A DNA stretch of 64,000 nucleotides, taken from the sequence record PP430345, one strand, 5' to 3'. Both the position numbers and the translations under genes were made by a program. Of the stretch, positions 21,257 to 59,846 are shown one piece after another. Origin of the DNA: Escherichia phage vB_EcoM-LTH01. The notes beneath the pieces are model-generated. The model saw only the letters and a list, made by a program, of their open reading frames with translations, was not told where the DNA came from and did no database searches. The stretch's first letter is position 1, and every line of letters begins with the position of its first letter.

Positions 21257-21589
21257 ATGGGTAAATTAGTTGTTTTGGAAGTTCGGGCAGCAGACTTAGC
21301 AAAGGCAGTTGGTTTCTTTAAATTTGAAGATTCTGAATTTCGTGAGCGATGGGGACTTAACTTACCATCCAAAATCTGTGGTCTTTTTAAGGCAAGTCAG
21401 ATCGAAGACCTGATTATTAAAAAGATTGTTAATCTTGATGGTGTGGAATTTAATAATATTGTCGTTTTCGACGAAGACTTTGATTGGTCTGCCTATTGCA
21501 GCCTTTCAGATTGGATTGCTAAATTCCCGATGGCAGAAAACTGTTCTGTTTCAATTCCTGGATCTTTACTGGAGATTGTGAATGTATAA
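21257..21589 (+). CDS. hypothetical protein
   Basis: 110-aa ORF. Confidence 0.4.
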   Translation: MGKLVVLEVRAADLAKAVGFFKFEDSEFRERWGLNLPSKICGLFKASQIEDLIIKKIVNLDGVEFNNIVVFDEDFDWSAYCSLSDWIAKFPMAENCSVSIPGSLLEIVNV

Positions 21590-21818
21590 TCAAGATATCG
21601 AAACGATTAAAGAAAGGCTTAAGTTGATGACAGCTTCGCCCAATGTAACGACTAAGGATGTTGATCTTATTCGTCAAACACTTCATGTAATAAATTCATT
21701 AGAAGAGGAGATCAAGTCTCTCAATGTTGATGTAGGTTGTTACAAACATGCTTATGTTGCGTTTGCTGACATTACGAAGATTATGGCTCGGGAGTTAGAA
21801 AAATCGAAACATTCTTAG
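21582..21818 (+). CDS. hypothetical protein
   Basis: 78-aa ORF. Confidence 0.4.
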   Translation: MYNQDIETIKERLKLMTASPNVTTKDVDLIRQTLHVINSLEEEIKSLNVDVGCYKHAYVAFADITKIMARELEKSKHS

Positions 21819-21954
21819 GGGTTATCGTTTTAATACTGGCATTCTACCTCTTCACAAGAGCGTGCTGGATTGGATTTTTCAGTACGCCTGACGGATTACT
21901 TTCGGTAGTGCTATTCTTGATTTCAATATCTGCATTGGATCTATAGGAGTTTTT

Positions 21955-22506
21955 ATGCGAGTCACTGATAAACATGTGTTCTTTTATTCTTATCGCGATG
22001 TTTTTAGTAATCATTACCAGGAGATCTCTCCATTCTCAAACTTCGACCAGAAGATGAAGGGGGTTTATTTCCACACTGGTGAGCATTACATGATGTATGA
22101 AAAGGCTATGCTTTTCGGTGACAAAGCTTCAGCGGAAAGGATCATTAAGGCCGTAACGCCGCAAGGTGCTAAAACGCTCGGTCGTAAGGTAAAGAATTTT
22201 GATCAGGCAGTTTGGGATGAAAATAAATTTAACATTGTGACCCGTTTAGTGTATAGTCGTATGTGTGATAATGGTAATCTCCGTGAACTTGCGGTAGGTT
22301 ACCGTAAAAAGGGTTTGAAGTTTGTAGAAGCCTCGCCGAGAGATCGTATATGGGGGATCGGTATGGACGAGAATCATCCTATGGTAGATGATGAAAGTTT
22401 CTGGTATGGAGAGAATCTTTTGGGGAAAGCCTGGGACGAAGCAACGGATATGATTATCGATGTTTCGGAAGCTATGAATATGATTGGTAAATGTGAGGCA
22501 TACTAA
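21955..22506 (+). CDS. NADAR-domain protein (YbiA-like)
   Basis: Motifs FFYSY, FSNF, GEHY, KA.LF, LGRKV, LVEASPRDRIWGIG matching the YbiA/NADAR fold. Confidence 0.75.
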   Translation: MRVTDKHVFFYSYRDVFSNHYQEISPFSNFDQKMKGVYFHTGEHYMMYEKAMLFGDKASAERIIKAVTPQGAKTLGRKVKNFDQAVWDENKFNIVTRLVYSRMCDNGNLRELAVGYRKKGLKFVEASPRDRIWGIGMDENHPMVDDESFWYGENLLGKAWDEATDMIIDVSEAMNMIGKCEAY

Positions 22507-23010
22507 ATGAAATTAACTATCGAATTAATCCCAAGCACAGCTTGGGACAACAACCTTCGGTCTTACCTTACCCAATCTGGTTGGGACAAAGTTCGTCGAA
22601 AGTGCTATCAAGAAGCAAACTACCACTGTGAGGTTTGTGGAGGTCAAGGTGGAAATGGACGTAAGCATCCATGTGAAGCTCACGAGGTATGGGACTTTGT
22701 TGATGGGGAAGTTGTGTTAAGGGGTGTGATCGCTTTATGTCCTCCTTGCCACGAAGTAAAACATATCGGTCGTGCTCAAGCGACTGGTAACATGACTCGT
22801 GCAATACGACACTTTATGAAAGTTAACGGTGTTGACAAGAAGGCTGCTGAAGAATACATTAGGCAAGCTGCGGCATTGTGGCGAGAAAGAAGTAAGCAAG
22901 AGTGGTCTTTGAATATCGATTATCTGTATGAATACATGGGTAAAGATTTCAAATTCAAGCGACCAGTAAAAGAAGTTAAAGAAGACGAAGATTACGGCGA
23001 AGCATTTTAA
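22507..23010 (+). CDS. putative HNH-like zinc-finger nuclease
   Basis: CEVCG...HEVWDF...LCPPCHEVKH pattern; 167 aa. Confidence 0.35.
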   Translation: MKLTIELIPSTAWDNNLRSYLTQSGWDKVRRKCYQEANYHCEVCGGQGGNGRKHPCEAHEVWDFVDGEVVLRGVIALCPPCHEVKHIGRAQATGNMTRAIRHFMKVNGVDKKAAEEYIRQAAALWRERSKQEWSLNIDYLYEYMGKDFKFKRPVKEVKEDEDYGEAF

Positions 23011-23023
23011 TAAGGAGAGGTCT

Positions 23024-24133
23024 ATGGGTTATCCGGTAATTGAAGATTGGTCAGGTATTATCGAAGACAACGTGGTTGTTGCACTTGATCTCGATCAAAC
23101 TTGCTATGTTGCTGCGGCTGGTGCAGAAAAAAGAACGATCATCGCTCGACACAAGGAGACTGGAAGGGAAAAAGAATTTCGCAACAAAACAGAGTTTTGG
23201 GGTCGCCAAAAGAATGTTGTTGGTGGATGGTTAAAAGACCAAAACATTAATATGGAAGCAAAAGCGGTTGCTCGCGGAAAAGAATTTACTCCGTGGACCC
23301 GTGATGATTTCGAGATCATTGAAAAGCAAACTCCAGAACCAGTGGAGAACTGTCTTCACTTATTGAAGATTAAGATCAATGCTATTCTTGAACACGTAGG
23401 ATCAGCAAACGGGCTTGGTGTTTTAGGTGGGAGTGGTAACTTCCGTCTTGCACTCCCGACCCCTGAGATCTATAAGGGTAACCGTGAAGATACTTTACGT
23501 CCTCTGTTGCTTGGGGAGACTCGTCGATATGTTCAGCAGAAGTATGGTGCGATCATTGTGGATGGTATTGAGGCAGATGATTATTTATCGATCCTTGGTT
23601 ACAAAGGTTATTTAAATTATCGAAAGACTGGAAAGTTCAGTCATATTGTGGCATCCTTTGATAAGGATCAGGTTCAGGTTCCTTCTCTGTTGTTTAACAC
23701 GATGCGTGATTCAACAGAGCGTACTTGGAAACATCCTGAACTCTGGTTGATTGATGATTCTATGGGTGAGATCTGGATGGAGTCTGGAAAGGTAAAAGGC
23801 TGGGGTAAGAAATTCTTCGGTTACCAAATGCTATTTGGTGATGCAGCGGATAACGTTAAACCATATCAAACCTTCGAGGGTCTTCGCTTTGGTGAAACAT
23901 CGGCTTTCCAGGTCATCTCCCCTTGTGCAGACGAGAAGAGTATGTGGTTAGCTATTATTGATCAGTATAAGAAGTGGTTTCCTGAGGGTGTTGAATATAC
24001 AGACCACTTAGGGAATCATCGTAAGTTTTCAGCGGGTCAGTGGGCTTCTGTCATTTTCCAGTGTGTTTATATGAAGCGCACAGAAAATGATAAGACAACA
24101 TTATCCTCAACTTTAAAACGGGTAGGTATTTAA
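23024..24133 (+). CDS. putative 5'-3' exonuclease / flap endonuclease (RNase H-like)
   Basis: VVVALDLDQT and IVDGIEADDYL resembling FEN-family metal-binding motifs. Confidence 0.4.
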   Translation: MGYPVIEDWSGIIEDNVVVALDLDQTCYVAAAGAEKRTIIARHKETGREKEFRNKTEFWGRQKNVVGGWLKDQNINMEAKAVARGKEFTPWTRDDFEIIEKQTPEPVENCLHLLKIKINAILEHVGSANGLGVLGGSGNFRLALPTPEIYKGNREDTLRPLLLGETRRYVQQKYGAIIVDGIEADDYLSILGYKGYLNYRKTGKFSHIVASFDKDQVQVPSLLFNTMRDSTERTWKHPELWLIDDSMGEIWMESGKVKGWGKKFFGYQMLFGDAADNVKPYQTFEGLRFGETSAFQVISPCADEKSMWLAIIDQYKKWFPEGVEYTDHLGNHRKFSAGQWASVIFQCVYMKRTENDKTTLSSTLKRVGI

Positions 24134-24444
24134 TGTCAGGCTTTTCTGAGAGTTTTGATGATGTTATGATCGCTGACGAAATTCGTGCAGCACTCGTTCC
24201 TGGCGCAAAGCGCCAGGTCTACAAGATTGAAGAACCTTGGACTATGCTGGAGGAGCCTTGGAGAATTCAATGGTTTGACAAGCGTGTTGATTCTATCTGT
24301 CAGGTCTATGTTGTTGGTGATCCGTTCTACGATGAGAAATATGTAACTTTTATGGTTTACATGGACGGAGAAGTAAAGAACTATGTGTTCTTAATCGACC
24401 AATATCATTATCTTGATAATACCGAAGAAGGGGAATCAGCGTGA
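24133..24444 (+). CDS. hypothetical protein
   Basis: 103-aa ORF. Confidence 0.4.
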   Translation: MSGFSESFDDVMIADEIRAALVPGAKRQVYKIEEPWTMLEEPWRIQWFDKRVDSICQVYVVGDPFYDEKYVTFMVYMDGEVKNYVFLIDQYHYLDNTEEGESA

Positions 24445-25019
24445 AAATTTTATCCATCGATCAGAGTATGGCTTCTTGTGCATGTGTAGTTTTTGACGGT
24501 AATGAACCGATCTTTAAAGAAGTATTGAAAACAACAGGATCTGCAAATGCCAAAGACTGGCAGATTCGTTTTGATAATCCTGTTGAGCAGATGGCATACA
24601 TTTCTCGACACATTGCGGATATTTGTGAGTCTTTCCAGGTCGAGAAGATCGTGCTGGAGTCTTTGAGCTTTGGATCTGCTGGTAATGCCACAAGGGATCT
24701 TGCAGGATTATTTTTCTGTATTCAGTTGACACTACTTCGAGATGGATATAGTATGGACAACATACACACCATTGCACCAACATCTGTTAAATCTTGGGCG
24801 CGAGGTAAATTACCTGGTGAGGAACAAGAGGTGATGAATGCAAAAGGTACGAAGATGGAAAAAATTAAAATGGATAAAGATCAAATGATGAAGGTTTGCG
24901 AGTTGATGGAACCTGGGTTTTTAGCTGGATATTCAAAGACAGGTAAGAACGGCGGGGCTACAGATCTTGCAGATGCCTACTTAATTGGGAGATGCTACCT
25001 TGAACGAAACGGTTATTGA
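24441..25019 (+). CDS. RuvC-like Holliday junction resolvase
   Basis: N-terminal ILSIDQS, IVLES, C-terminal TDLADAYLIG typical of RuvC-fold resolvases; GTG start. Confidence 0.55.
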   Translation: MKILSIDQSMASCACVVFDGNEPIFKEVLKTTGSANAKDWQIRFDNPVEQMAYISRHIADICESFQVEKIVLESLSFGSAGNATRDLAGLFFCIQLTLLRDGYSMDNIHTIAPTSVKSWARGKLPGEEQEVMNAKGTKMEKIKMDKDQMMKVCELMEPGFLAGYSKTGKNGGATDLADAYLIGRCYLERNGY

Positions 25020-25653
25020 ACGCTACGAATCTGAAGAGTTTTACCAGAGTAAGAAATTAGTGATCTGTTGGAATACCCTCGAAAGGGGGGATTTCATTGC
25101 TAAACTAAAGCACACTGCAAATAAGTTGGGGTTTGGTTCTTATCAGAAGGATCGTAGTGGTTACGATATAAACCTGTTTAATGAGCGATCTAAGCTGAAC
25201 ATGCACATTCAGACGATCAGTTCTGCACAGTGGTCTTTTTGGCAAAAAGTCAGAGGTATGTGTTTTGACGAAATCATCATCAGTGGGTATTCTTTTAAGT
25301 CTGTTTCTGATAAAGCTTCACTGAAAGAATTACTTTATTTGACGAAGCAAAAAGGTAATCCGATTTTTGATAATGCTTTAAGGGTTTTTATAAACTCAAG
25401 TCGATCTGAATTCTTTAAGGATTTTGATTCGAACGTTCCATCAGAGTTTAAAAATAATGTTGACAACAGTCTGTTTAGTAATATAAACTTTCCAATGTCA
25501 CTTTATCGCTTCGGAATGGAAGAGTATTTTGAAAACCCTGTTGCACCTACACACGGTGAGTTCTTAATGGCTTTGGCCTTGGAGGGAGTACATGCGAGTA
25601 CCGAGAGTGAGGAAGCGGCGGTCAAAGAGGCCACTATTCACAGCGAAGGATAA
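24985..25653 (+). CDS. hypothetical protein
   Basis: 222-aa ORF. Confidence 0.4.
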   Translation: MGDATLNETVIERYESEEFYQSKKLVICWNTLERGDFIAKLKHTANKLGFGSYQKDRSGYDINLFNERSKLNMHIQTISSAQWSFWQKVRGMCFDEIIISGYSFKSVSDKASLKELLYLTKQKGNPIFDNALRVFINSSRSEFFKDFDSNVPSEFKNNVDNSLFSNINFPMSLYRFGMEEYFENPVAPTHGEFLMALALEGVHASTESEEAAVKEATIHSEG

Positions 25654-25696
25654 GGCAACTACACCTATCCGTGTTAAATTGAATAAGGATCTTTGG

Positions 25697-26170
25697 GTGA
25701 GTGGGTCGAAGGAAATAGCAAAATATCGTGATGAAATATTGCTTGACCAACAGGGAGTTTGTGCTATACTAGGTGAAGTTATGGAGAAGCCTTGTTTAGA
25801 CCATGATCACTTTGATGGAAAGGTTAGGGGTGTTATTGGAAGCACCCTGAACCTTTTCGAAGGTGGTGTACAAAAACTTTGGTCTAAACACATGGAAGAT
25901 AAAACAGACTTGACAATGAGTGAAGTTCTACGTAGAATGGCTGACTATCTCGAAAGGGATTACTCTTCAAGAAAGTTTCATGGTGAGATTGTTGCTGACC
26001 TGAAAAAATATTTGAAGAGATTAAAGAAAGAAACAATTGCAATGAACGCTTTATTGAGGTACAATGTAGTTATCGATGATAGTTTGGATAAAGGTGAAAT
26101 GATAACTCTTTATGTGAAAGCGTTTATCGATAAACTTGAGGAGGGTTATCTGTATGAGTCAAGAAGTTGA
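25697..26170 (+). CDS. recombination endonuclease VII-like protein
   Basis: CLDHDHFDGKVRGV matching the DHDH..G.VRG core of T4 endonuclease VII; start set to GTG 25697 after AAGGA. Confidence 0.55.
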   Translation: MSGSKEIAKYRDEILLDQQGVCAILGEVMEKPCLDHDHFDGKVRGVIGSTLNLFEGGVQKLWSKHMEDKTDLTMSEVLRRMADYLERDYSSRKFHGEIVADLKKYLKRLKKETIAMNALLRYNVVIDDSLDKGEMITLYVKAFIDKLEEGYLYESRS

Positions 26171-26381
26171 CAATAACACCTACGGTTTACCAACCCTGCG
26201 GTTTTATTATCGCAATTGGAAAGGTGATTGTGGTTATCGTACTGTAACTGGTACGCCAGTGATGTGGTATGGTGAATCGCCGTATCATCGTGGCGAACAG
26301 TGGTTTATGAAAGCGTATGATGTAGATAAACAAGATATCCGTGACTTTGCTGTTGCCGATGTAATCGAATTTTTTAAATAA
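26154..26381 (+). CDS. hypothetical protein
   Basis: Start at ATG 26154 with GAGGAGG upstream. Confidence 0.4.
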   Translation: MSQEVDNNTYGLPTLRFYYRNWKGDCGYRTVTGTPVMWYGESPYHRGEQWFMKAYDVDKQDIRDFAVADVIEFFK

Positions 26382-26391
26382 GGAGTTTTTA

Positions 26392-27486
26392 GTGACTAAT
26401 AAAGTAACTTTTACTGTTGAACAAGTTCTGCAACTGATGAAACACGGTTTGTCTCAGCGCGAAGTAGCTCGCCAATTGGGTAAAGAGTCTCAGGAATCTA
26501 CGGTTCGTAATATGATCCGTCGTGAAATTCAAAAGAATGATGTTTCAAGTGTTAAGGAACTCCTTGAAATCACCCCAGCTTATGAAGATTACGAAAACTA
26601 TGCAGAATATATGCAGCAGAAAGAGTCAGGTGGGGAGTCTGTCGCTAAGATTGAAAAAGATTTCATTGAAAAGATCAAAGAGCAGAACCCAGGTGCTAAA
26701 GTTTTCCTTGGTGACATTGAAACATCTCCTTCTATAGCATATTCGTTTGGACGATTTAAACAGTTCATTGCACCGAAGCAGGTAATTATGGAACCGTACA
26801 TGCTGACATTCGCTGGTAAGTGGCTGCACAACCCATCGATCTTCAGCCGGAAGCTGACTGACTATCCAGAAGAGTTTGCACGAGATCACCAGTCAGATCG
26901 CAAGTTGATCGAAGACCTGTGGAAAGTTCTGGACGAATGTGATATCTTTATCGCACATAATGCTCGCTTTGACCGTGGTTGGGCAAATCAGCGTTTCGCA
27001 TATTACGGTATGCAACCGCCAAGCCCCTACATCACGATCGATACATTGGCTGCACTGAAAGAAGCTTTCTCTCTTCCTTCAAATGCACTTGAAGCAGCAT
27101 GTAACTATTTTGAACTTGATAGTCGTAAGCTGTCGCATGAAGGTTTCAGTCTGTGGCGACGTTGTGTTGAAGGTGACCCAACCGCATTTGAAGAGATGGA
27201 AGAATATAACATTGGTGATATTCCAACGCTGGAAGAACTGTATCTGACTGTACGACCTTTCATGCGGAAACATCCGAACATTGCATTGTTCCACAAAGAT
27301 CAATCAACTATGCGTTGTGTTCGTTGTGGTAGTGACGACTTAGTTATTGAGGAAGGTAAGTCAGCAGTAACGTTCTTGTCTAAGTTCAAGGTGTATCGTT
27401 GCCAGGAATGTGGTTCTTGTGCACGAGATCGTCAGAATGTTCGCGAGAAGGCAGCGATGAAGAAAACGCTGGCAAACATTCTGTAA
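26392..27486 (+). CDS. DnaQ-like 3'-5' exonuclease (DEDDh) with C-terminal zinc finger
   Basis: Exo motifs FLGDIETS and IFIAHNARFDRGW; C-terminal CxxC...CxxC. Confidence 0.55.
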   Translation: MTNKVTFTVEQVLQLMKHGLSQREVARQLGKESQESTVRNMIRREIQKNDVSSVKELLEITPAYEDYENYAEYMQQKESGGESVAKIEKDFIEKIKEQNPGAKVFLGDIETSPSIAYSFGRFKQFIAPKQVIMEPYMLTFAGKWLHNPSIFSRKLTDYPEEFARDHQSDRKLIEDLWKVLDECDIFIAHNARFDRGWANQRFAYYGMQPPSPYITIDTLAALKEAFSLPSNALEAACNYFELDSRKLSHEGFSLWRRCVEGDPTAFEEMEEYNIGDIPTLEELYLTVRPFMRKHPNIALFHKDQSTMRCVRCGSDDLVIEEGKSAVTFLSKFKVYRCQECGSCARDRQNVREKAAMKKTLANIL

Positions 27487-39330: not shown

Positions 39331-39809
39331 ACATCTGCGGATATGAAAGCACAGACTTCATCAACGGGGAGGGTGTAAGAACCTCCCTGTGGGTTAGTGG
39401 ATGCAGTCATAAGTGCAAAGGCTGTTTTAATCAAAAGGCATGGTCATATAGTTACGGAAAAGAATTTGCAGATGAAGATATGGAGAGATTGAAAAAAGAT
39501 CTTTCTCGTAATTTTATCAGTGGATTATCGATCATGGGTGGAGAACCTCTTGACCCTGAGAATATTGATATTGTAAAAAGAATCATCAAGGAAGTAAAGT
39601 CGTCCTTTGGTGAGAGTAAAGATATCATGGTGTGGACAGGGTATCTTTTTGAAGATTTAGATGAGGAAATAAAGAAACACGTTGACTTAATCATGGACGG
39701 TAAGTATAATGAAAACAAACCTACAACTAAAAGATTCAGGGGATCAGATAACCAAAGGCTTTGGAAAAAAGTTAATGGGTACTGGTCAACTGAAGATGAA
39801 GGAGGTTAA
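39327..39809 (+). CDS. nrdG: anaerobic RNR activating protein (radical SAM)
   Basis: CSHKCKGC cluster; directly follows nrdD. Confidence 0.8.
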   Translation: MNICGYESTDFINGEGVRTSLWVSGCSHKCKGCFNQKAWSYSYGKEFADEDMERLKKDLSRNFISGLSIMGGEPLDPENIDIVKRIIKEVKSSFGESKDIMVWTGYLFEDLDEEIKKHVDLIMDGKYNENKPTTKRFRGSDNQRLWKKVNGYWSTEDEGG

Positions 39810-39810
39810 A

Positions 39811-40428
39811 GTGCCAGCTTATACAGGAATAGGTTCAAGGGAGACTCCTGAAGAAATATTAAAAATTATGGAAGATGCAGGTTGGAGATTAGCAAGAGTT
39901 GGGTACACATTACGATCTGGTGGTGCAGGTGGCGCAGATGCAGCATTCCAAAGGGGTATGCAGAGGTTTCATGAAGATTGTAATATGACCCAATCACCGA
40001 GTAGACTTGCAGAGATATATGTTCCTTGGAATAACTTTAAAGGTGGACAGGGACTTAAGGACCTGTATAATATCTCTCTGAATGAAATCGACAAAGATTT
40101 CCCACAGCATAAAGAGATGCGTTGGGATTGGGTGAAAGAAGTTCATGGTGGTTGGGATAAGTTGAGTCAGGGAGCAAGGAAGTTGCACGAAAGAAACGTA
40201 CACCAGATTTTTGGTAAAAATCTTTCAAATGCATACTTGATGCAAAGTAAATTTGTGATATACTACGCAAAGGAAACAAGAACGGGCAATCCCAAGGGTG
40301 GCACTGCTACAGCAGTCAATCTTGCAAAGAAGAGTGGAGTAAGAACACTTAATCTTTGGAAAGAAGACAACATCACAGTGCTTGAGAATTTCTTAGTTAA
40401 CTTGGAGTCAAAACGTGGTCTTAGATAA
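39811..40428 (+). CDS. SLOG/DprA-like Rossmann-fold protein
   Basis: GIGSRETP...LRSGGAGGADAAFQRG; start set to GTG 39811 after AGGAGG (ATG 39796 is an alternative). Confidence 0.4.
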   Translation: MPAYTGIGSRETPEEILKIMEDAGWRLARVGYTLRSGGAGGADAAFQRGMQRFHEDCNMTQSPSRLAEIYVPWNNFKGGQGLKDLYNISLNEIDKDFPQHKEMRWDWVKEVHGGWDKLSQGARKLHERNVHQIFGKNLSNAYLMQSKFVIYYAKETRTGNPKGGTATAVNLAKKSGVRTLNLWKEDNITVLENFLVNLESKRGLR

Positions 40429-42996: not shown

Positions 42997-43157
42997 CTAG
43001 AAATGGTAGTTCAGCATACGAGAAGGGCCGAGCAGCCGGATTCAAGTTTGGGATGTTCAAGAGAAACAACCCGTATGATCCAAACACCATGCCGGAGCAA
43101 TTTCAAGATTGGGAATCAGGATTTACAAAAGGGTATCAAGAAAAGGGGTGGTTATGA
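42993..43157 (+). CDS. ribosome modulation factor (RMF)-like small protein
   Basis: 54 aa from ATG 42993; GRAAGF...NPY...QDWESGF parallels E. coli RMF RGYQAG...CPY...QWLGGW (recalled). Confidence 0.35.
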   Translation: MTRNGSSAYEKGRAAGFKFGMFKRNNPYDPNTMPEQFQDWESGFTKGYQEKGWL

Positions 43158-43198
43158 GTGGATATGTGGGGATGGAAATAATAGGAGAAGAGAGAGTA

Positions 43199-44449
43199 AT
43201 GAAAGTTTACTTGGTAGGTGGCGCAGTTCGTGATGAACTGATGAGTGTTGAAAGTAAGGATCGGGACTATGTAGTCGTCGGCGCGACCCATGAAGAAATG
43301 ATTGAAAAGGGATTTACTAAGGTTGGTGCAGCTTTCCCTGTGTACCTTGAACCAAACACAAAAGAAGAGTACGCTCTTGCTCGAACGGAAAGATCAACAG
43401 GTCCTGGTTATCACGACTTCGAGGTTGTGTTCTCTCCCGACGTTACAATTGAACAAGACCTGATGCGAAGAGATTTGACCATTAATGCTATTGCCAAGGA
43501 TCTTTCTACGGGTGAAATTATTGACCCTTGCGGTGGTGTACTCGATATTGAACTTCGTCGGTTACGTTGTGTATCCACTAAAGCATTTATCGAAGACCCT
43601 TTACGTGTATACCGATTAGCCAGATTACATGCCAGATACGGCGGCGAGTTTACAATTGATCCTGAGACTTGGGGAATGTGCAAGGATGTTGATTTAAGTG
43701 CATTGCCAAAAGAGCGTAAATTTGCAGAGATTAAGAAATGCTTTAGTGATCAGTCAGAAATGAATAAACCTTCGGTAATGATCCGTATGTTGACTCAACT
43801 GGGAGAATTTCCTGAGCTTGTGGATTTATACGATGTTGTTCAACCCAAGGAGCACCACCCTGAAGGTGATGCATTTGTTCACACTTTACTTTGCATGGAT
43901 TATGCCCAAGCGACTCGTGCAAGTGAAGCTGTGAAGTGGGCAGTTCTGTGTCACGACTTAGGGAAATGCATTTATTGGTTAACAGGTAAATTGCACGGGC
44001 ATGAAGAACATGGTATCAAGTTGACTGAACAAGTTTGCGATCGCTTTGGTGTTCCTAACAATTGGAAGAAGTTAGCTTTAGCTGTAACTGAGCACCATAC
44101 ACGACTTCACCGTATCAAAGAGATGAAGCCAAAGAAAGTTTACGACTTGTTGGTAGCCTTACGTGGTGAAAAGGACCAGGCATTCCTTTCTGAGTTTATT
44201 GACGCTTGCATCTGTGATGCTCGTGGTCGTGGCCCTGAAAAAATGTTTGACAACTACACCCAGCCTTTGGTATTATTCTCAGCACTGGCGGGGATTGTTC
44301 AAAACAGCGTTGCAATCTCAAAAGAAAGTAAAGAGATTTCTGAAAGATTTGCTGGACGTCCAGAAGAGATCAAGAATAGAATCCGAAATGTAAAAGTAAG
44401 GTACGTTACACAATACATCGATAAGATGAAGGAGAGTGAAAATGGTTGA
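43199..44449 (+). CDS. cca: tRNA nucleotidyltransferase (CCA-adding enzyme) with HD domain
   Basis: MKVYLVGGAVRD head motif, HD-domain histidines (CHDLGK); start at ATG 43199 after AGGAGAAG. Confidence 0.8.
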   Translation: MKVYLVGGAVRDELMSVESKDRDYVVVGATHEEMIEKGFTKVGAAFPVYLEPNTKEEYALARTERSTGPGYHDFEVVFSPDVTIEQDLMRRDLTINAIAKDLSTGEIIDPCGGVLDIELRRLRCVSTKAFIEDPLRVYRLARLHARYGGEFTIDPETWGMCKDVDLSALPKERKFAEIKKCFSDQSEMNKPSVMIRMLTQLGEFPELVDLYDVVQPKEHHPEGDAFVHTLLCMDYAQATRASEAVKWAVLCHDLGKCIYWLTGKLHGHEEHGIKLTEQVCDRFGVPNNWKKLALAVTEHHTRLHRIKEMKPKKVYDLLVALRGEKDQAFLSEFIDACICDARGRGPEKMFDNYTQPLVLFSALAGIVQNSVAISKESKEISERFAGRPEEIKNRIRNVKVRYVTQYIDKMKESENG

Positions 44450-46420: not shown

Positions 46421-47548
46421 ATGGAAAATTCAGTTGTGAGTGCTGGAAAGGTAAAAAGTATCGTAGAGAAGATGGAAAAGCATCCAGACGTAGCAAAGGT
46501 CTTGATGTTGAGTCTGGCAGGATCTCATGCGTATGGTACGAATAACGAAGGCAGTGATATTGATATTCGTGGGGTTTTTGTTGCAACTCCAAATGTGGTT
46601 CGTACCCCATTCAAAGAGGTTACTGAATTAAACATCCCTGGTGAAGAGGATGCCAAGATCTACGAGTTGGGAACTTTCCTTCAACTGTTTTCGAAGATGA
46701 ACCCAAATATCATTGAACTGGGTTTTACTGATCCGAAAGCCACATTGTACGAGCACGAAGCTTGGAAAGAGATGAAAGAACATTTCTACTCCTTACTGTC
46801 TCGTGAAGTTGCATTTCGCTTCAGTGGTTATGCAATGTCTCAGTTAAAGCGGATCAAGGGTCACAACAAACACATTAATAATCCGCAACCAAAAGAGCCA
46901 CCAACTCAATTTGACTATTTCCGTCTGGTGCAGAGCTATCTCGGAGAAGGTGAGTTGAAGTATGAAGACTTTGTTCGTAAATTTAAAAACATGGAAGGCT
47001 TCTGTACTCTGGTTCCTTACGGTGGTAACATTTACGGTGTTGTAGAAGATCGTAGTGAAGATGTTCAACCAATGTTTAATAAAGATGGTTCTATCCGTAA
47101 GCTGGATTATGAAGAAATCCCAGAGGAGGTTAAAAGAGGTAAGACACTGATGATTGTTAAGTATTGTGCAGACGATCATAAATGGGCCAAGGATAAACAT
47201 CACAACTACTGGGAGTGGGTTAAGAATCGTAACGAGAAGCGTCATGAACTGGAAGAGAAGTTCGGTTACGACACTAAACATGCTATGCATTTGGTCCGGC
47301 TTCTTCGGATGGGTGAAGAAATCCTCACAGAAGGTAAAGTTTTAGTGAATCGACCAGACGCTGAAGAACTCCTCGCAATCCGAAATGGTGAATACCGCTA
47401 TGAAGAAATTGTTGACTGGGCTGAAGAAAAAGATAAAATGATCACAGATGTTCTTTATAAGCAATCGAGCTTACCGAAGAAAACAGATCTGAAGATTGTT
47501 GAAAAACTTATTCTGGAGGCACAAGACAAGGTATGGAAGGAAACCTAA
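46421..47548 (+). CDS. Pol-beta superfamily nucleotidyltransferase (substrate unknown)
   Basis: GSHAYGTNNEGSDIDI (GS-x9-DxD) near N-terminus; 375 aa with alpha-rich C-terminal region. Confidence 0.5.
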   Translation: MENSVVSAGKVKSIVEKMEKHPDVAKVLMLSLAGSHAYGTNNEGSDIDIRGVFVATPNVVRTPFKEVTELNIPGEEDAKIYELGTFLQLFSKMNPNIIELGFTDPKATLYEHEAWKEMKEHFYSLLSREVAFRFSGYAMSQLKRIKGHNKHINNPQPKEPPTQFDYFRLVQSYLGEGELKYEDFVRKFKNMEGFCTLVPYGGNIYGVVEDRSEDVQPMFNKDGSIRKLDYEEIPEEVKRGKTLMIVKYCADDHKWAKDKHHNYWEWVKNRNEKRHELEEKFGYDTKHAMHLVRLLRMGEEILTEGKVLVNRPDAEELLAIRNGEYRYEEIVDWAEEKDKMITDVLYKQSSLPKKTDLKIVEKLILEAQDKVWKET

Positions 47549-55176: not shown

Positions 55177-56376
55177 ATGTTAGAAATGTTGAACTTAGGT
55201 GCTGTGGCCTCTCTACCGCCGATTGATGGTGAAATTTCACCTGAATTTATCCAAGCGCAGCAATCGATAGTTATGTATCTTCACAGGCCAACTGGCAATC
55301 TTTACGGGTATGGTAATGCACCTGTATACCGATTCGGAGACGGTATCCCAACAGAAGTGCCGAGCTTTAAACTTATCTATTCAAACTGTAAATATTTCTG
55401 GTTGGGTCAGGCTAGTACACTTGTTGCAACAAACGATGATAAATTCTATTATGCTGGGGTCAGAAACGCATTTCCACCACTGGGGACAGGTGGTGGTAAC
55501 GTTGCTTACTTTACTGAAGTTACAGTACATTTTAACAATATTGGTGTGACACCTGATGATATAAAAACTCTGGCGCTCGGTAGCGGATCTTGTAGGCTTC
55601 TGACAAAAGATGGTCGTGTTTTCTGCTGTGGTCTTAACTCTAATGGTGAGTGTGGGAACGGTACAAGAAATATGATTGCAAACTTTGTCCAGATCACCAA
55701 TATGGGACCTATATCTCAATTGGCTACAAGGGCTTTCGGTACTCATTTCTTAACTGAAGATGGCAGGGAATTCTTTGCAGGGTACGATGCTTACGGGGAA
55801 AGTGGCCTAGGTGCTCTTAACAGCCACTTACAAACTCCAACATTGGTTACTTCGGGTGTTAAAAACATAATTGTTGCTACGGTATGTACTTGGAGAATAA
55901 TGCAAAATGGAGACGTGTATTGGAGCGGTTTGAATACTCAAGGTTCTGCGGGAACAGGTTCATTTAACAACGCAGGTACGGTCCTAAGACCTATAAAAAA
56001 CGATGCCTTGAGTGGAAACTTACCGGAGGGTGATTTATTATATCCATCAGGCATCCAAACAGGTGATGCAACGGGTGCTCCGATCATTTGTTTCGGGAGA
56101 AACACTATCAAAAACGGTGGTGAAAACGGATCAGGTCAAGTGGGTGATGGTGTAAGTTATACATCGGTATATAACTATGTGGACATGTACAAACCTGCAA
56201 CCTTCGGAGATAAAAAGGTTATTGGGGTGGCTAAAGATTATGTACGATCATTTATCTTAACTGAAGATTATCAATTGTTTGCCGCAGGTGGTAGAACAGC
56301 AAGTGGATGGACACTCCCTGATGGAGGGACCAGTGTTACACCCATGCGCCTCATGGCTAGTATGCCTTGGTACTAA
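55177..56376 (+). CDS. RCC1-like beta-propeller repeat protein (paralogue 1)
   Basis: Starts MLEMLNLG; repeated Gly-rich units e.g. CCGLNSNGECGNGT, WSGLNTQGSAGTG. Confidence 0.55.
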   Translation: MLEMLNLGAVASLPPIDGEISPEFIQAQQSIVMYLHRPTGNLYGYGNAPVYRFGDGIPTEVPSFKLIYSNCKYFWLGQASTLVATNDDKFYYAGVRNAFPPLGTGGGNVAYFTEVTVHFNNIGVTPDDIKTLALGSGSCRLLTKDGRVFCCGLNSNGECGNGTRNMIANFVQITNMGPISQLATRAFGTHFLTEDGREFFAGYDAYGESGLGALNSHLQTPTLVTSGVKNIIVATVCTWRIMQNGDVYWSGLNTQGSAGTGSFNNAGTVLRPIKNDALSGNLPEGDLLYPSGIQTGDATGAPIICFGRNTIKNGGENGSGQVGDGVSYTSVYNYVDMYKPATFGDKKVIGVAKDYVRSFILTEDYQLFAAGGRTASGWTLPDGGTSVTPMRLMASMPWY

Positions 56377-56389
56377 TAAGGAGAATAGA

Positions 56390-57523
56390 ATGTTAGAGAT
56401 GTTAAATTTATCTGGCGCGGCAGGGAAGGTCCCATTTAAGTTGAAAAAGTTTGATATTACAGCAAGCGAAAGTATTCACTTGCTTAGTGAAGCTGGCAAT
56501 CTGTACTCAATATCACCTACAAATGTAAACTTATCGGGAACGGGTGTTACCACAACGCAGTGGACGTTAGTCTCTTCGGGTGTAGATGACTTCTGGGCTG
56601 GGCAAGCTTCGCTCTTGTTCAAAACAAAAGGGGGATCGTGGTTTATTACAGGGTATAACTTCTTCGTACCTAGAGTAGAGAATACGCCCGTTGACGTAAC
56701 GGCTAAGGTAATGGCAATCAATAAGCCGATAAGAAAAATAGAAATGGGTGCTAATGCGATCGCTTTCCTTTATACAGATAATACTCTGGCAGTTGCGGGA
56801 TCAGGCCCCCATTTAGGCTTAGGTTCCAATACTTCAGTCCCGAATTTAACTTATGTTGAACCACCAAATACTTCGTTGGGTATCAAAGATGTTGCGATAT
56901 TGGATACTTCAGTTACTACCTGGATTATAAGCGGGGGTGATGTATACGGATGTGGAAACGGGGCTTACTCTAAGTTTTCTTCTTCCAACGGGACAGGCCA
57001 AAGGACCTCTTTTGTTAGGATACCAAACCCAATAAACTCAGCACCACTTGCATTAAAGACTGGATATGAGTGCGTGTATATTTCAGGCTCACGCACAGAC
57101 GGGGATGAATTGATACTCGGCTTAGGTAGCAACGCATATGGGTCATTAGGTGCAGCATCTACTGTTGCAACTGTAACTGACATATCTGTAGTCACAAGCA
57201 GTGTTTATTCACCCGCTTACGGGTTTTACCCTCTCGCCCAAGGTCTTGTGAGGAGAATAAATAACAATATCGGTATTACGGGGAGGACTGCGGGGACAGG
57301 CTGGGGATTGGGAACTCAGACGTATTACGGTATTACTAGAATAACCACTACAGCAAGTCCGTTATGGGGTCAAATATTTCAAAGGGGTGAGTATACAAAC
57401 ACTTACGTTCTGGCAGAAGATGGTATTTTGTATGGGTCGGGTGGGGCTTCAACAGGTAAATTACCTGGTTACACAACAGATCAGTCAACCTATGTGCCAC
57501 TGGACCTTACCGGACTTGAATAA
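56390..57523 (+). CDS. RCC1-like beta-propeller repeat protein (paralogue 2)
   Basis: Start at ATG 56390 (MLEMLNLS) after AAGGAG; same repeat type. Confidence 0.55.
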   Translation: MLEMLNLSGAAGKVPFKLKKFDITASESIHLLSEAGNLYSISPTNVNLSGTGVTTTQWTLVSSGVDDFWAGQASLLFKTKGGSWFITGYNFFVPRVENTPVDVTAKVMAINKPIRKIEMGANAIAFLYTDNTLAVAGSGPHLGLGSNTSVPNLTYVEPPNTSLGIKDVAILDTSVTTWIISGGDVYGCGNGAYSKFSSSNGTGQRTSFVRIPNPINSAPLALKTGYECVYISGSRTDGDELILGLGSNAYGSLGAASTVATVTDISVVTSSVYSPAYGFYPLAQGLVRRINNNIGITGRTAGTGWGLGTQTYYGITRITTTASPLWGQIFQRGEYTNTYVLAEDGILYGSGGASTGKLPGYTTDQSTYVPLDLTGLE

Positions 57524-57532
57524 GGAAAAATT

Positions 57533-58672
57533 ATGTTAGAGATGATGAACTTAGGTTCTGTCGAATTGCCAGAAGTGGAAGGTAACGTTAAGAAATTCGC
57601 CGCCGGAGGTACGGGGATTGTTGTACTTATGAAATCCGGCAACGCCTACGGTATCGGAGATCAATACTTCAGCGGTACAGGGGGGAATGTTACAACATGG
57701 AGGCTTCTGGCAAGAAACGTTGCAGATATATGGGCTGCAACTGGCTCTGTGCTTATGAGGACAACCGCAGATAGATGGTTGTTTATGGGGTTTAACCAAT
57801 ATTTTAATACTGGTTTTGGAACTACGATAACCACCCCCAGAGATATAACTACAGATATGCCTATACCCGAAGGATTTGAGATCAAGCAGTTGGTACTCGG
57901 GTATCGTAACTTGGCTGTTGTCTTTACCAATGGGCGGTATGCAATGTGCGGGACTAATAACGCAGGAGGTCTGGGGACAGGGGACACTTTTGCAGTAAGA
58001 ACCTTAACCTTAAGAACTGACTTCACAAACGTTGAAAAAATAGATCTTGATTGGGCAACCTACGACACATCTTATCTTCTTACCCAAGCTGGTGAAGTTT
58101 ATGTATCAGGTGTTTCAAATAATGGACAAAACGGGACAACTTCAAACACTACAACTTGGTTTAGGCAAAGCCCAATTAGTGGTGGTACGGTAGTTGACAT
58201 AATCGCGACAACGCTTGGGTTTTTTAGGGTTGTACTTTTAAATGGTAATTACTACGTCTACGCACAAGGGCGAAGTTCGTCAGGGAGTCTTGGGGTAAAT
58301 AACTCAGGTAACATAAACGTTCTTTCACCCTCATTGGTATTTTCTAATGTACCTTCAAGACCTCCTTTGTACATTGGTCACCTTAGCGCCCGTATTCTCC
58401 ACCCCGAAGAAAGGGTATACTATACAGGGGCGGCTACGGGTAGTTTACAAGGAGCAGGTGCACAATTTCAGTCGTCGTATTCAGTATTTACACGGCTTGC
58501 AGAGACTGTACCGTATGGTGGAGAATATTCATCCCTAAAAGGTGGCTATGTTGCACACTACTATGTAGATAAAGGAAACCTATATGGTGTCGGTAATAGC
58601 AGTGCAGGATTGCTCCCAGGTTACATAGGTACACAACTCTTCGAATTTACACCGTTGGAATTGCCGGAGTAA
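57533..58672 (+). CDS. RCC1-like beta-propeller repeat protein (paralogue 3)
   Basis: MLEMMNLG; near-collinear with paralogue 4 (FMGFNQYFNTGFGTT, TLTLRTDFTNVEKIDLDW). Confidence 0.55.
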   Translation: MLEMMNLGSVELPEVEGNVKKFAAGGTGIVVLMKSGNAYGIGDQYFSGTGGNVTTWRLLARNVADIWAATGSVLMRTTADRWLFMGFNQYFNTGFGTTITTPRDITTDMPIPEGFEIKQLVLGYRNLAVVFTNGRYAMCGTNNAGGLGTGDTFAVRTLTLRTDFTNVEKIDLDWATYDTSYLLTQAGEVYVSGVSNNGQNGTTSNTTTWFRQSPISGGTVVDIIATTLGFFRVVLLNGNYYVYAQGRSSSGSLGVNNSGNINVLSPSLVFSNVPSRPPLYIGHLSARILHPEERVYYTGAATGSLQGAGAQFQSSYSVFTRLAETVPYGGEYSSLKGGYVAHYYVDKGNLYGVGNSSAGLLPGYIGTQLFEFTPLELPE

Positions 58673-58694: not shown

Positions 58695-59846
58695 ATGTTA
58701 GAAATGATGAACTTAGGCACTGTTAAACTTCCTGCGGGAGGAGGCAGGGTCAAGAAGTTTGCAGCGGGGCAACAAGGCATCGTTGTACTTATGGAGTCTG
58801 GGAAACTCTATGGTCGCGGAAGTCAGTATTTTAGTGGTACAGGGTCTACTGTAAACACTTGGAAACTGCTAGGAACAGATATCGCAGACGTATGGACGGG
58901 TCCCGTATCAACTCTTGCAAGGACAACAGACGACAGATGGTTGTTTATGGGATTGAACCAATATTTTAACACTGGTTTTGGGACAACATGGTCCGCGCTG
59001 ACGGATGTTACAGTGGATATGCCTATCCCTGTTGGCCTTACGGTTAAGCAGGTAGTGATGGGATACATAAACGTTGCAGTAGTCTTTGCAAATGGACAAT
59101 ATGCCATGTGTGGGACAAATGTCTCCGGTGGATTGGGTGTTGGTAACACATCACCTGTGAGAACCTTAACATTAAGGACCGATTTTACGAACGTGGAGAA
59201 GATAGACCTCGATTGGGGGACATATGATACCTCCTATCTTCTTACCCAAGCTGGTGATGTTTATGTGGCCGGACAATCTTCTTATGGTCAAAACGGAACA
59301 CAGTCTAGCTCCACAACTTGGTTCAGGCAAAGTTCAGTTAGCGGCGGGACAGTGGTAGATATAGTTGCAACAACCTTAGGGTTCTTCAGGATCGTTCTTT
59401 CATCAGGGAGTTACCGAATATATGCGCAAGGGAGGGACATAAACAATAGTCTTGGAACTAACACCACAAGCAACACACCTCGACTGGCCCCTGTATTAGT
59501 TCTTTCGGGAATAGCAAGTGCAGTAAGACCAAGGGTATATATCAGTCACTATGCTGCCCGAGTTATAGATAGCGATGGAGTAGTATACTTTACAGGACAA
59601 GGGACGGGAGATCTACAGGGTGTTGGGACCACACCTCAACCAACGTATCGTGTTTTTTCACAGCTTGACCCAATAGTTCCGTCCGTAGGTGATTATTTTT
59701 CCACAAGATCTCAGTACCTGACTAACTATTATTTGGAAGATGGTGTTCTGTATGGTGTTGGTCAGGGTGCTCAAGCAACACAGTTACTACCTGGTTATGG
59801 AACGACACAGGTTCTGACTTTCTCTGTTCTGGAATTACCGGAATAA
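58695..59846 (+). CDS. RCC1-like beta-propeller repeat protein (paralogue 4)
   Basis: MLEMMNLG; closest to paralogue 3. Confidence 0.55.
   Translation: MLEMMNLGTVKLPAGGGRVKKFAAGQQGIVVLMESGKLYGRGSQYFSGTGSTVNTWKLLGTDIADVWTGPVSTLARTTDDRWLFMGLNQYFNTGFGTTWSALTDVTVDMPIPVGLTVKQVVMGYINVAVVFANGQYAMCGTNVSGGLGVGNTSPVRTLTLRTDFTNVEKIDLDWGTYDTSYLLTQAGDVYVAGQSSYGQNGTQSSSTTWFRQSSVSGGTVVDIVATTLGFFRIVLSSGSYRIYAQGRDINNSLGTNTTSNTPRLAPVLVLSGIASAVRPRVYISHYAARVIDSDGVVYFTGQGTGDLQGVGTTPQPTYRVFSQLDPIVPSVGDYFSTRSQYLTNYYLEDGVLYGVGQGAQATQLLPGYGTTQVLTFSVLELPE

What the first reader, a model, noticed from the sequence alone, without database searches (positions are those of the whole stretch)
21955..22506. NADAR-domain protein: candidate remover of ADP-ribose from DNA bases
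The ORF carries the YbiA/NADAR signature blocks. NADAR enzymes are N-glycosidases and have been shown to reverse ADP-ribosylation of guanine bases; phage-borne copies are thought to counter DarT-type DNA ADP-ribosylating toxins. It sits at the head of a DNA repair/recombination cluster (HNH-like, FEN-like, RuvC-like, EndoVII-like, DnaQ-like).
Basis: partly seen in the sequence, partly recalled or inferred. Interest (0 to 1): 0.6.

Follow-up and report, generated by a model that had tools for sequence, protein, structure and literature searches.

The report
Phage NADAR enzyme, likely anti-DarT1 factor
This is an intact phage copy of a NADAR enzyme that most likely strips ADP-ribose off guanine in phage DNA to defeat the bacterial DarTG1 defence; three other phage NADARs already have this role shown by experiment, so it is a new example of a known kind.

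Summary

The window comes from an E. coli phage related to UPEC06, which GenBank files under Vequintavirinae.

Johannesman et al. 2025 showed that three phage NADARs neutralise DarT1 and rescue phages on DarTG1 hosts: AdfN of T4, of Bas32 and of Bas60. The window protein aligns with AdfN-Bas60 from the first residue over about 167 of 183 residues (38% identity, E 5e-30). It belongs to the same glutamate-type NADAR group as that protein and PnNADAR.

The gene is under strong purifying selection (dN/dS 0.02-0.05). It is nevertheless accessory: it is frameshifted in phage A7_1 and missing from the syntenic locus of Vequintavirus JeffSchatz. No activity has been measured for this ortholog group.

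Verdict: new member of a known kind, low-to-moderate interest.

The parts
21955..22506 (+). NADAR-domain gene, 183 aa: candidate AdfN-type ADP-ribosyl-base N-glycosidase
21945..21949 (+). Shine-Dalgarno AGGAG, 5 nt upstream of the ATG at 21955
   Evidence: Read directly from the sequence. An in-frame TGA at 21889-21891 rules out the longer 5' start annotated in phages A5-4 and W70.
22081..22083 (+). Codon of E43. It matches E43 of PnNADAR, E88 of E. coli C7 DarG1 and E36 of T4 AdfN; it contacts the distal ribose and is catalytic.
   Evidence: HMMER alignment to 8BAU. Invariant in 100 of 100 sequences. Residue roles from PMC11543638 and PMC11825919.
22102..22104 (+). Codon of K50. It matches K50 of PnNADAR, K95 of C7 DarG1 and K43 of T4 AdfN; it coordinates the pyrophosphate and is essential.
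   Evidence: residue role.
22327..22353 (+). E125-A-S-P-R-D130-R-I-W133 motif: the second ribose-coordinating glutamate plus the pyrophosphate contacts D130 and W133
   Evidence: E125 in 99 of 100, D130 in 99 of 100 and W133 in 98 of 100 sequences. The same positions exist in 8BAU. E at this position marks the YbiA/NADAR type, as opposed to D in DarG1 and H in T4-type proteins.
22507..27486 (+). Context only: downstream HNH, 5'-exonuclease, RuvC-like, EndoVII and DnaQ-like DNA replication/recombination genes, syntenic with the NADAR gene across several Vequintavirinae genera
   Evidence: families; synteny in L009-L019; the same module without a NADAR gene in Vequintavirus JeffSchatz.

Best explanation
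The gene encodes a stand-alone ('orphan') NADAR N-glycosidase of the glutamate-type NADAR family. It is made during infection from the phage's DNA-metabolism gene block.

Proposed mechanism:
1. The enzyme binds the ADP-ribose moiety attached to the N2 of guanine in phage DNA. Pyrophosphate contacts come from K50, R77, W87, K91, D130 and W133. Distal-ribose contacts come from E43 and E125.
2. It hydrolyses the ribose-base N-glycosidic bond, restoring unmodified guanine.
3. This reverses DNA ADP-ribosylation by DarT1-type toxins of the DarTG1 defence system, so phage DNA replication can proceed.

In other words, it acts as an AdfN-type counter-defence enzyme, an antitoxin-like enzyme carried without a toxin.

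Shown here: family membership, fold, conservation of all ADP-ribose-binding and catalytic residues, homology to AdfN-Bas60, purifying selection, and genomic context.

Inferred: the substrate (guanine-ADPr in DNA), the in-vivo target (DarT1) and the timing of expression.
For: Family and structure
- Pfam NADAR E 4e-37.
- The AF2 model has pLDDT 97.2.

Active site
- Residues that contact ADPr in 8BAU are E43, K50, R79, W89, R93, E125, D130 and W133 (PMC11543638).
- They correspond to E43, K50, R77, W87, K91, E125, D130 and W133 here.
- All except position 91 are invariant or nearly so in 42 and 100 homologues.

Homology to a tested phage enzyme
- 38% identity, E 5e-30, to AdfN-Bas60 (bas60_0111), aligned from residue 1; both proteins are 183 aa.
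- AdfN-Bas60 neutralises DarT1 in E. coli and restores plating of RB69, T5 and Bas25 on DarTG1 hosts (PMC11825919).

General NADAR biochemistry

Orphan status and selection
- No ART, macrodomain, Nudix or sirtuin was found among 20 larger uncharacterised ORFs of the window, and none is annotated next to the gene in relatives.
- dN/dS is 0.02-0.05.
- Position next to the replication/recombination genes is conserved across genera.
Against: - No biochemical or genetic data exist for this protein or for its Vequintavirinae ortholog group.
- Identity to the tested AdfN-Bas60 is only 38%. In a rough NJ tree the two lie in different sub-branches of a poorly resolved radiation.
- In-vitro guanine-ADPr hydrolysis does not guarantee rescue from DarT1 in cells. 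E. coli YbiA and T4 gp30.3 failed in uninfected cells.
- The protein is mildly acidic (pI 6.2), as is AdfN-Bas60 (pI 5.9).
- The gene is dispensable on K-12. It is frameshifted in A7_1 and absent from the syntenic locus of JeffSchatz. That pattern fits any accessory function, not specifically an anti-DarT1 one.
- NCBIfam's best model is named for riboflavin-intermediate N-glycosidase.
Confidence: 0.65

Rival explanations
1. The enzyme is an ADP-ribose N-glycosidase, but its physiological substrate is not DarT1-modified guanine in DNA. Candidates are cytosine-ADPr in DNA, ADP-ribosylated RNA (for example from mRNA- or ncRNA-targeting ARTs of defence or T6SS systems), or low-molecular-weight ADPr-derived immune signals.
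For: [quoted passage not shown] The window protein carries the E125 signature of those families and is closest to 8BAU.
- Iyer et al. 2022 argue that most phage NADARs target soluble ADPr derivatives (PMC9503650).
- Johannesman et al. raise RNA-ADPr defences as possible targets.
- The window also carries RNA-repair-type genes: an RlaP nucleotidyltransferase and a CCA-adding/HD enzyme.
Against: - The only in-vivo function shown for any phage NADAR is against DarT1.
- The gene sits among DNA-metabolism genes rather than next to the RNA-repair genes, which lie about 20 kb away.
- No cytosine-ADP-ribosylating or NADAR-sensitive RNA-ADP-ribosylating anti-phage system of E. coli turned up in the papers read here.
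- This rival is not exclusive of the main explanation; the enzyme could do both.
Confidence: 0.2
2. The protein is a metabolic YbiA-type N-glycosidase that hydrolyses reactive riboflavin-biosynthesis intermediates in the infected cell.
For: - TIGR02464 'riboflavin biosynthesis intermediates N-glycosidase' scores 129.8 bits against a cut-off of 73.7.
- Some sources name bacterial homologues this way.
- UPEC06 annotates the gene as 'ybiA'.
Against: - The same model also matches AdfN-Bas60 (109 bits) and PnNADAR (117 bits). Both are proven guanine-ADPr hydrolases, so the model name does not discriminate.
- No riboflavin genes are annotated in the region in relatives.
- E. coli YbiA itself also hydrolyses guanine-ADPr in vitro.
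Confidence: 0.05
3. The protein acts without catalysis, as a binder or decoy that blocks a defence protein or an ADP-ribosylated nucleic acid. One phage NADAR-like protein that inhibits Retron-Eco1 is described this way.
For: Johannesman et al. cite a phage NADAR protein acting on Retron-Eco1 that does not need enzymatic activity.
Against: - All catalytic residues are strictly conserved across hundreds of phage and bacterial homologues, which points to selection for catalysis.
- I could not read the Retron-Eco1 paper, and no similarity to that inhibitor was tested.
Confidence: 0.04
4. The gene is a decaying passenger with no current function.
For: It is frameshifted in A7_1 and absent from Vequintavirus sensu stricto.
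Against: - dN/dS is 0.02-0.05 among four intact close relatives, with dS up to 0.3.
- The gene is intact and syntenic in several genera.
- Its GC content equals that of the genome.
- It has a strong Shine-Dalgarno sequence.
Confidence: 0.02

Closest known systems
AdfN-Bas60 (bas60_0111, Escherichia phage PaulScherrer, phi92-like Justusliebigvirus); Johannesman et al. 2025
   Same: - Phage-encoded, stand-alone protein, also 183 aa.
- Same N-terminus: MR[VI]TDK[HY]VFF.
- 38% identity, E 5e-30.
- Glutamate-type active site with E43, K50, R77, W87, E125 and D130.
- No DarG1-like N-terminal extension.
- Similar pI.
- Both match TIGR02464 and PADLOC PDC-M42C.
   Different: - Different genomic slot: in Bas60 the gene lies beside an FtsH-like protease gene, far from the exonuclease and DnaQ genes.
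- Bas60 has Y at position 133 and K at 136, and an insertion after residue 66.
- Different sub-branch in the rough tree.
- Only Bas60's protein has been tested.
Phytophthora nicotianae NADAR (PDB 8BAU); Schuller et al. 2023
   Same: - Identical ADP-ribose-binding residues, even with the same numbering for E43, K50, E125, D130 and W133.
- A proven guanine-ADPr hydrolase.
   Different: - Eukaryotic, with unknown physiological role.
- Has a roughly 20-residue insertion after the WGIG motif that the phage protein lacks.
AdfN-T4 (gp30.3), the T4-type 'phage NADAR' family
   Same: - Orphan phage NADAR located near DNA-metabolism genes.
- The E and K catalytic pair is conserved.
- Anti-DarTG1 role is shown genetically.
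   Different: - His replaces E125, and the D130/W133 motif does not align.
- No TIGR02464 match.
- 19% identity to the window protein.
- Needs a T-even infection context for full activity, and does not remove C-ADPr.
DarG1, the DarT1-linked NADAR antitoxin (E. coli C7; G. lovleyi 8BAT)
   Same: Same fold superfamily and same chemistry: guanine-ADPr N-glycosidic hydrolysis.
   Different: - No adjacent DarT1 gene here.
- No N-terminal beta-beta-alpha extension.
- Glu rather than Asp at the position that is catalytic in DarG1.
E. coli YbiA (PDB 2B3W; TIGR02464/COG3236)
   Same: - Passes the TIGR02464 cut-off.
- Relatives of the window gene are annotated 'ybiA' or COG3236.
   Different: - More distant than PnNADAR on every measure.
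- YbiA is a chromosomal, LexA-regulated housekeeping enzyme with a role in riboflavin-intermediate metabolism, and it does not rescue cells from DarT1.

Membership tests
NADAR superfamily (Pfam PF08719) | Profile match above the curated cut-off over the whole domain | tested here: met
   128.3 bits against a cut-off of 35.1; residues 14-163 match profile positions 10-158 of 163.
NADAR superfamily (Pfam PF08719) | NADAR alpha+beta fold | tested here: met
   [not shown]
NADAR superfamily (Pfam PF08719) | Conserved catalytic Glu and Lys (E43 and K50 in PnNADAR numbering) | tested here: met
   E43 and K50 are present and invariant in 100 of 100 aligned sequences.
Glutamate-type 'NADAR/YbiA' families (as opposed to DarG1 or T4-type) | Glu at the position of PnNADAR E125 (Asp in the BC4488/DarG1 type, His in the T4 type) | tested here: met
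   E125 is present, in 99 of 100 homologues; T4 gp30.3 has H there.
AdfN (phage anti-DarT factor NADAR) | Phage-encoded NADAR with no cognate DarT toxin gene nearby (orphan) | tested here: met
   The window is a lytic phage related to UPEC06, filed under Vequintavirinae. The neighbouring genes are DNA-metabolism genes. No ART was found among 20 other ORFs.
AdfN (phage anti-DarT factor NADAR) | Homology to an experimentally validated AdfN | tested here: met
   38% identity, E 5e-30, to AdfN-Bas60, aligned from residue 1 to 158 of 183. Only 19% identity to AdfN-T4. AdfN-Bas32 was not compared.
AdfN (phage anti-DarT factor NADAR) | Removes ADP-ribose from guanine in DNA | not testable with these tools
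   Needs a hydrolysis assay on guanine-ADPr oligonucleotides or on DarT1-modified genomic DNA.
AdfN (phage anti-DarT factor NADAR) | Neutralises DarT1 or DarTG1 in vivo | not testable with these tools
   Needs a toxicity-rescue assay and plaque assays.
DarG1 (DarT1-associated NADAR antitoxin) | Encoded next to a DarT1 gene | tested here: not met
   The flanking genes are a 78-aa ORF and an HNH gene.
DarG1 (DarT1-associated NADAR antitoxin) | [quoted passage not shown] | tested here: not met
   [not shown]
YbiA / TIGR02464 riboflavin-intermediate N-glycosidase | HMM score above the curated cut-off | tested here: met
   129.8 bits against 73.7. The model equally captures AdfN-Bas60 and PnNADAR, so passing it does not establish the riboflavin function.
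YbiA / TIGR02464 riboflavin-intermediate N-glycosidase | Closer to YbiA than to other NADAR families; linked to riboflavin genes by fusion or clustering | tested here: not met
   Closer to 8BAU than to 2B3W in all comparisons. It is a single-domain protein, and no rib genes are annotated in the syntenic region of relatives.
T4-type 'phage NADAR' family | His at the E125 position; clusters with gp30.3 | tested here: not met
   Position 125 is E, not H, and identity to gp30.3 is 19%.

The most novel reading that the evidence does not exclude
The Vequintavirinae NADAR lineage is fixed beside the replication/recombination genes and carries the NADAR/YbiA-type glutamate active site. It may therefore be a broad-spectrum nucleic-acid de-ADP-ribosylase: guanine plus cytosine, and DNA plus RNA. 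On that reading it protects replicating phage genomes against ADP-ribosylating defences other than DarT1, including cytosine- or RNA-targeting toxins not yet recognised as anti-phage systems in enterobacteria.
Probability: 0.15. Interest if true: 0.55.

Novelty: new member of a known kind. Interest (0 to 1): 0.25.

Why it matters
If active, the gene predicts that this group of coliphages is naturally resistant to DarTG1, a defence system found in some E. coli strains. That bears on host-range prediction and on choosing phages for therapy.

It would also add a fourth, sequence-distinct lineage to the phage AdfN enzymes. This would support the published view that phages captured NADARs several times.

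The frameshifted allele in phage A7_1, next to intact alleles in its near-identical relatives A5-4, A73 and W70, offers a ready-made natural experiment.

Conceptually nothing new is opened. The enzyme chemistry, the structure and the counter-defence logic were all published between 2023 and 2025.

Tried and rejected
- **Promoter and terminator scan of 21400-23100.** Promoter-like sites were no more frequent than in shuffles (5 against 4.2 expected), none lay in the 136-nt gap before the gene, and there were no terminators. Nothing can be said about transcription units.
- **Longer 5' start.** The 645-nt CDS annotated in A5-4 and W70 is rejected for this window. There is an in-frame TGA at 21889-21891, and the polymorphisms there are non-synonymous in that frame.
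- **Partner ADP-ribosyltransferase or other NAD/ADPr genes.** Pfam scans of 20 larger uncharacterised ORFs found none. About 90 small ORFs were not scanned.
- **Functional NADAR-HNH pairing.** The adjacency is confined to Vequintavirinae, so it reflects synteny rather than a conserved two-gene module.
- **PADLOC.** The only hit was a candidate-system component, PDC-M42C; no DarG model matched.
- **Supplementary tables of Johannesman et al.** They were not held. Bas60's gene was identified from the GenBank record instead.
- **Small hydrophobic ORF upstream.** It was not found outside the five close relatives.
- **Not done.** There was no comparison with E. coli C7 DarG1, the sigma70-linked E. 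coli NADAR, S. coelicolor SCO5665 or AdfN-Bas32, because the sequences were not at hand. There was no ML phylogeny, so the NJ tree is only indicative. The PnNADAR and YbiA sequences used were copied from HMMER alignment print-outs and lack their termini.

Full report
**1. The observation**

An AGGAG Shine-Dalgarno sequence at 21945-21949 lies 5 nt upstream of the ATG. The TAA stop is followed immediately by the ATG of the next gene at 22507.

The protein matches three independent family libraries.
- Pfam NADAR (PF08719): E 4.3e-37, 128 bits against a cut-off of 35.
- NCBIfam TIGR02464: 129.8 bits against a cut-off of 73.7.
- PHROG phrog_1017, of unknown function: E 5e-47.

Downstream, on the same strand, lie:
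- an HNH protein (phrog_5200, E 3e-70);
- a 5'-exonuclease (phrog_107, E 6.5e-66);
- a RuvC-like resolvase (phrog_159);
- endonuclease VII (PF02945, phrog_423);
- a DnaQ-like exonuclease (PF00929; phrog_403, E 1e-113);
- a dNMP kinase.

**2. Where the window comes from**

A 5-kb stretch around the gene is 94-95% identical to five Escherichia phages: UPEC06, A7_1, A5-4, A73 and W70. They are 137-145 kb long and are filed under Vequintavirinae. In those records the gene is annotated as 'swarming motility protein ybiA', as 'Uncharacterized protein COG3236', or simply as hypothetical. The domain had therefore already been noticed by annotators, though with an uninformative name.

**3. The protein itself**

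*Sequence.* By sequence, the best solved relative is 8BAU (E 7e-14); E. coli YbiA (2B3W) is much weaker (E 5e-5). 8BAU is the Phytophthora nicotianae NADAR bound to ADP-ribose, from the paper that established NADARs as guanine-ADP-ribose hydrolases (PMC11543638).

A profile built from 42 homologues scores 131 bits on 8BAU and 75 bits on YbiA. It does not find the DarT1-linked G. lovleyi NADAR (8BAT) at E <= 1.

*Structure.* An AlphaFold2 model made with that alignment is very confident: mean pLDDT 97.2 and pTM 0.91.
- Foldseek agrees.

*Active site.* Schuller et al. list the residues that hold ADP-ribose in 8BAU. K50, R79, W89, R93, W133 and (through water) D130 hold the pyrophosphate. E43 and E125 hold the distal ribose. 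Mutating the E, K and acidic equivalents in E. coli C7 DarG1 abolishes activity and antitoxin function.

In the HMMER and MAFFT alignments these positions correspond to E43, K50, R77, W87, K91, E125, D130 and W133 of the window protein.
- E43, K50, G76 and W87 are invariant in 100 aligned phage and bacterial homologues.
- R77 (98), E125 (99), D130 (99) and W133 (98) are nearly invariant in the same alignment. One search gives the 42-sequence alignment.

The glutamate at position 125 places the protein in the NADAR/YbiA type, as opposed to Asp in the DarG1 type and His in the T4-type 'phage NADARs'.

**4. What is already known**

Johannesman et al. 2025 (PMC11825919) made three relevant observations.
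- T4 gp30.3 (AdfN) removes ADP-ribose from DarT1-modified DNA and is needed for growth on DarTG1 hosts. A transposon screen confirmed this independently.
- Two unrelated NADARs, from Bas32/33 and from the phi92-like phages Bas60-62, neutralise DarT1 in E. coli.
- The same two proteins restore plating of RB69, T5 and Bas25 on DarTG1 hosts but not on DarTG2 hosts.

I located AdfN-Bas60 in the PaulScherrer genome as bas60_0111, annotated 'putative YbiA-like N-glycosidase'. It is also 183 aa and starts MRITDKYVFF, against MRVTDKHVFF here. It aligns from residue 1 at 38% identity, E 5e-30.

Cihlova et al. 2024 and Mikolcevic et al. [quoted passage not shown] The NADAR and YbiA families additionally remove cytidine-ADPr and act on RNA.

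Iyer et al. 2022 had already counted NADAR domains in 27% of myoviruses. My own scans agree with that abundance:
- 717 GenBank phage records hold a relative.
- At least 591 IMG/VR contigs do, many of them from jumbo phages.

**5. The riboflavin name**

TIGR02464 is labelled 'riboflavin biosynthesis intermediates N-glycosidase', and the window protein passes its cut-off. However, AdfN-Bas60 (109 bits) and PnNADAR (117 bits for a fragment) pass it too. The model therefore captures the whole glutamate-type group, and its name cannot be used to infer function.

The protein is also consistently closer to PnNADAR than to YbiA. No riboflavin genes are annotated in the corresponding regions of relatives.

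**6. Evolutionary context**

*Synteny within the subfamily.* The order NADAR, HNH, 5'-exonuclease, RuvC-like, EndoVII, DnaQ-like is conserved in eleven IMG/VR loci, L009-L019.
This matching was not verified.
- In these loci the NADAR is 47-56% identical to the window protein, against 66-77% for the exonuclease.

*Absence from Vequintavirus sensu stricto.* In JeffSchatz (Bas55) the same module is present, with HNH at 47%, the exonuclease at 54%, RuvC-like at 38%, EndoVII at 45% and DnaQ-like at 43% identity. There is no NADAR anywhere in the 9-kb locus. This matches the report that only Bas60-62 among these BASEL phages carry one.

*A different slot in Bas60.* There the NADAR gene lies in a different genomic position, beside an FtsH-like protease gene. 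In a rough NJ tree it falls in a different sub-branch of a star-like radiation. This is compatible with the published view that phages captured NADARs more than once.

*Selection.* Among the four intact close relatives, dN/dS is 0.02-0.05 with dS up to 0.3, so the gene is under strong purifying selection. Its GC content (41.5%) equals that of the window (41.2%), so it is not a recent import.

*A natural null allele.* Phage A7_1 has a one-base deletion after codon 96. This removes E125, D130 and W133 from the reading frame. It is either a natural null allele, comparable to the RB69 adfN frameshift described in the literature, or a sequencing error.

**7. Mechanism proposed**

The best-supported reading is an orphan, antitoxin-like ADP-ribosyl-guanine N-glycosidase of the AdfN type. 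On this reading it is made with the DNA-metabolism genes and removes DarT1-type ADP-ribose adducts from phage DNA, so that replication continues.
- Shown: family, fold, active site, homology to a validated AdfN, selection and context.
- Inferred: substrate, target and timing.

I put this at 0.65. The main alternative (0.2) keeps the chemistry but changes or widens the substrate to cytosine-ADPr, RNA-ADPr or soluble ADPr derivatives. It is not exclusive of the first.

Three further readings are each unlikely: a riboflavin housekeeping role, a non-catalytic binder, and a dead gene.

**8. Caveats**

- In-vitro activity does not guarantee in-vivo protection. YbiA, and T4 gp30.3 outside a T-even infection, do not rescue cells from DarT1.
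- The protein lacks the N-terminal extension thought to bind ssDNA in DarG1. AdfN-Bas60 lacks it as well and still works.
- I did not compare the protein with E. coli C7 DarG1, the sigma70-linked E. coli NADAR, SCO5665 or AdfN-Bas32.
- The tree is NJ only.
- No promoter could be assigned.

**9. Verdict**

The finding is a new, untested member of a known kind of phage counter-defence enzyme, in a gene that annotators had already flagged as YbiA, COG3236 or NADAR. Interest is low to moderate (0.25). Its practical value lies in predicting DarTG1 resistance for this phage group and in the natural frameshift comparator.

Noticed in passing
window 21770-21946 (+), reading frame of 21770: An unannotated 58-codon open stretch fills the 'intergenic' gap before the NADAR gene. 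It encodes a very hydrophobic peptide: ...IETFLGVIVLILAFYLFTRACWIGFFSTPDGLLSVVLFLISISALDL*.
- All six polymorphic sites in 21819-21943 among five related phages are synonymous in this frame and non-synonymous in the others.
- There is no ATG, GTG or TTG before 21908.
- Candidate starts are ATC 21803 (8 nt after GGGAG), ATC 21824, ATA 21833 and CTG 21836. A -1 slip from gene 21582..21818 at GAAAAAT (21798-21804) is also possible.
- The peptide was not found outside the close relatives.
   Followed up: partly
L002 (Escherichia phage A7_1) about 3233-3260; equivalent to window about 22240: A one-base deletion (ACCCGT to ACCGT) after codon 96 splits the NADAR gene into two annotated ORFs (A71_67 and A71_66) and removes E125, D130 and W133 from the frame. 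It is either a natural null allele in a phage isolated on K-12 or a sequencing error. Either way it is a useful comparator for DarTG1 tests.
   Followed up: partly
L089 (A5-4) 508-1152 and L090 (W70) 508-1152; window 21862-21954: Relatives annotate a 645-nt NADAR CDS with a 31-codon 5' extension. In the window that frame contains a TGA (21889-21891), and its polymorphisms are non-synonymous. The extension is probably an annotation artefact that overlaps the small hydrophobic ORF.
   Followed up: yes
L091 (Escherichia phage JeffSchatz/Bas55, Vequintavirus) 1-9119: The syntenic HNH, 5'-exonuclease, RuvC-like, EndoVII and DnaQ-like module is present but carries no NADAR gene. The NADAR is thus an accessory cassette within the subfamily.
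   Followed up: yes
NCBIfam TIGR02464 (no coordinates): The equivalog_domain model named 'riboflavin biosynthesis intermediates N-glycosidase' scores above its cut-off on AdfN-Bas60 and on PnNADAR, both proven DNA guanine-ADPr hydrolases. Automatic annotation will therefore mislabel many phage and bacterial NADARs.
   Followed up: yes
window 56279-57523, 57533-58672, 58695-59846 (+): Three tandem paralogous genes (414, 379 and 383 aa) give sub-threshold to moderate matches to RCC1-like beta-propeller repeats (PF25390 and PF13540). They are annotated as hypothetical in UPEC06.
   Followed up: no
window 43109-44449 and 46421-47548 (+): RNA-repair-type genes: a CCA-adding/poly(A)-polymerase head domain plus an HD domain, and an RlaP-family nucleotidyltransferase ('RNA repair pathway'). 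Their possible link to NADAR substrates on RNA was not explored.
   Followed up: no
window 39709-40428 (+): A 239-aa protein has a weak (E 0.004, below cut-off) match to DprA/DNA_processg_A, a SLOG-fold family that Iyer et al. report as co-occurring with NADAR and Macro domains in phages.
   Followed up: no
window 21955-22506; PADLOC PDC-M42C: Both the window NADAR and AdfN-Bas60 match a component (PDLC04643) of a candidate bacterial defence system, and weakly match the NCBIfam 'DS32_2 NADAR family anti-phage protein'. NADAR domains thus occur on both sides of the conflict.
   Followed up: no
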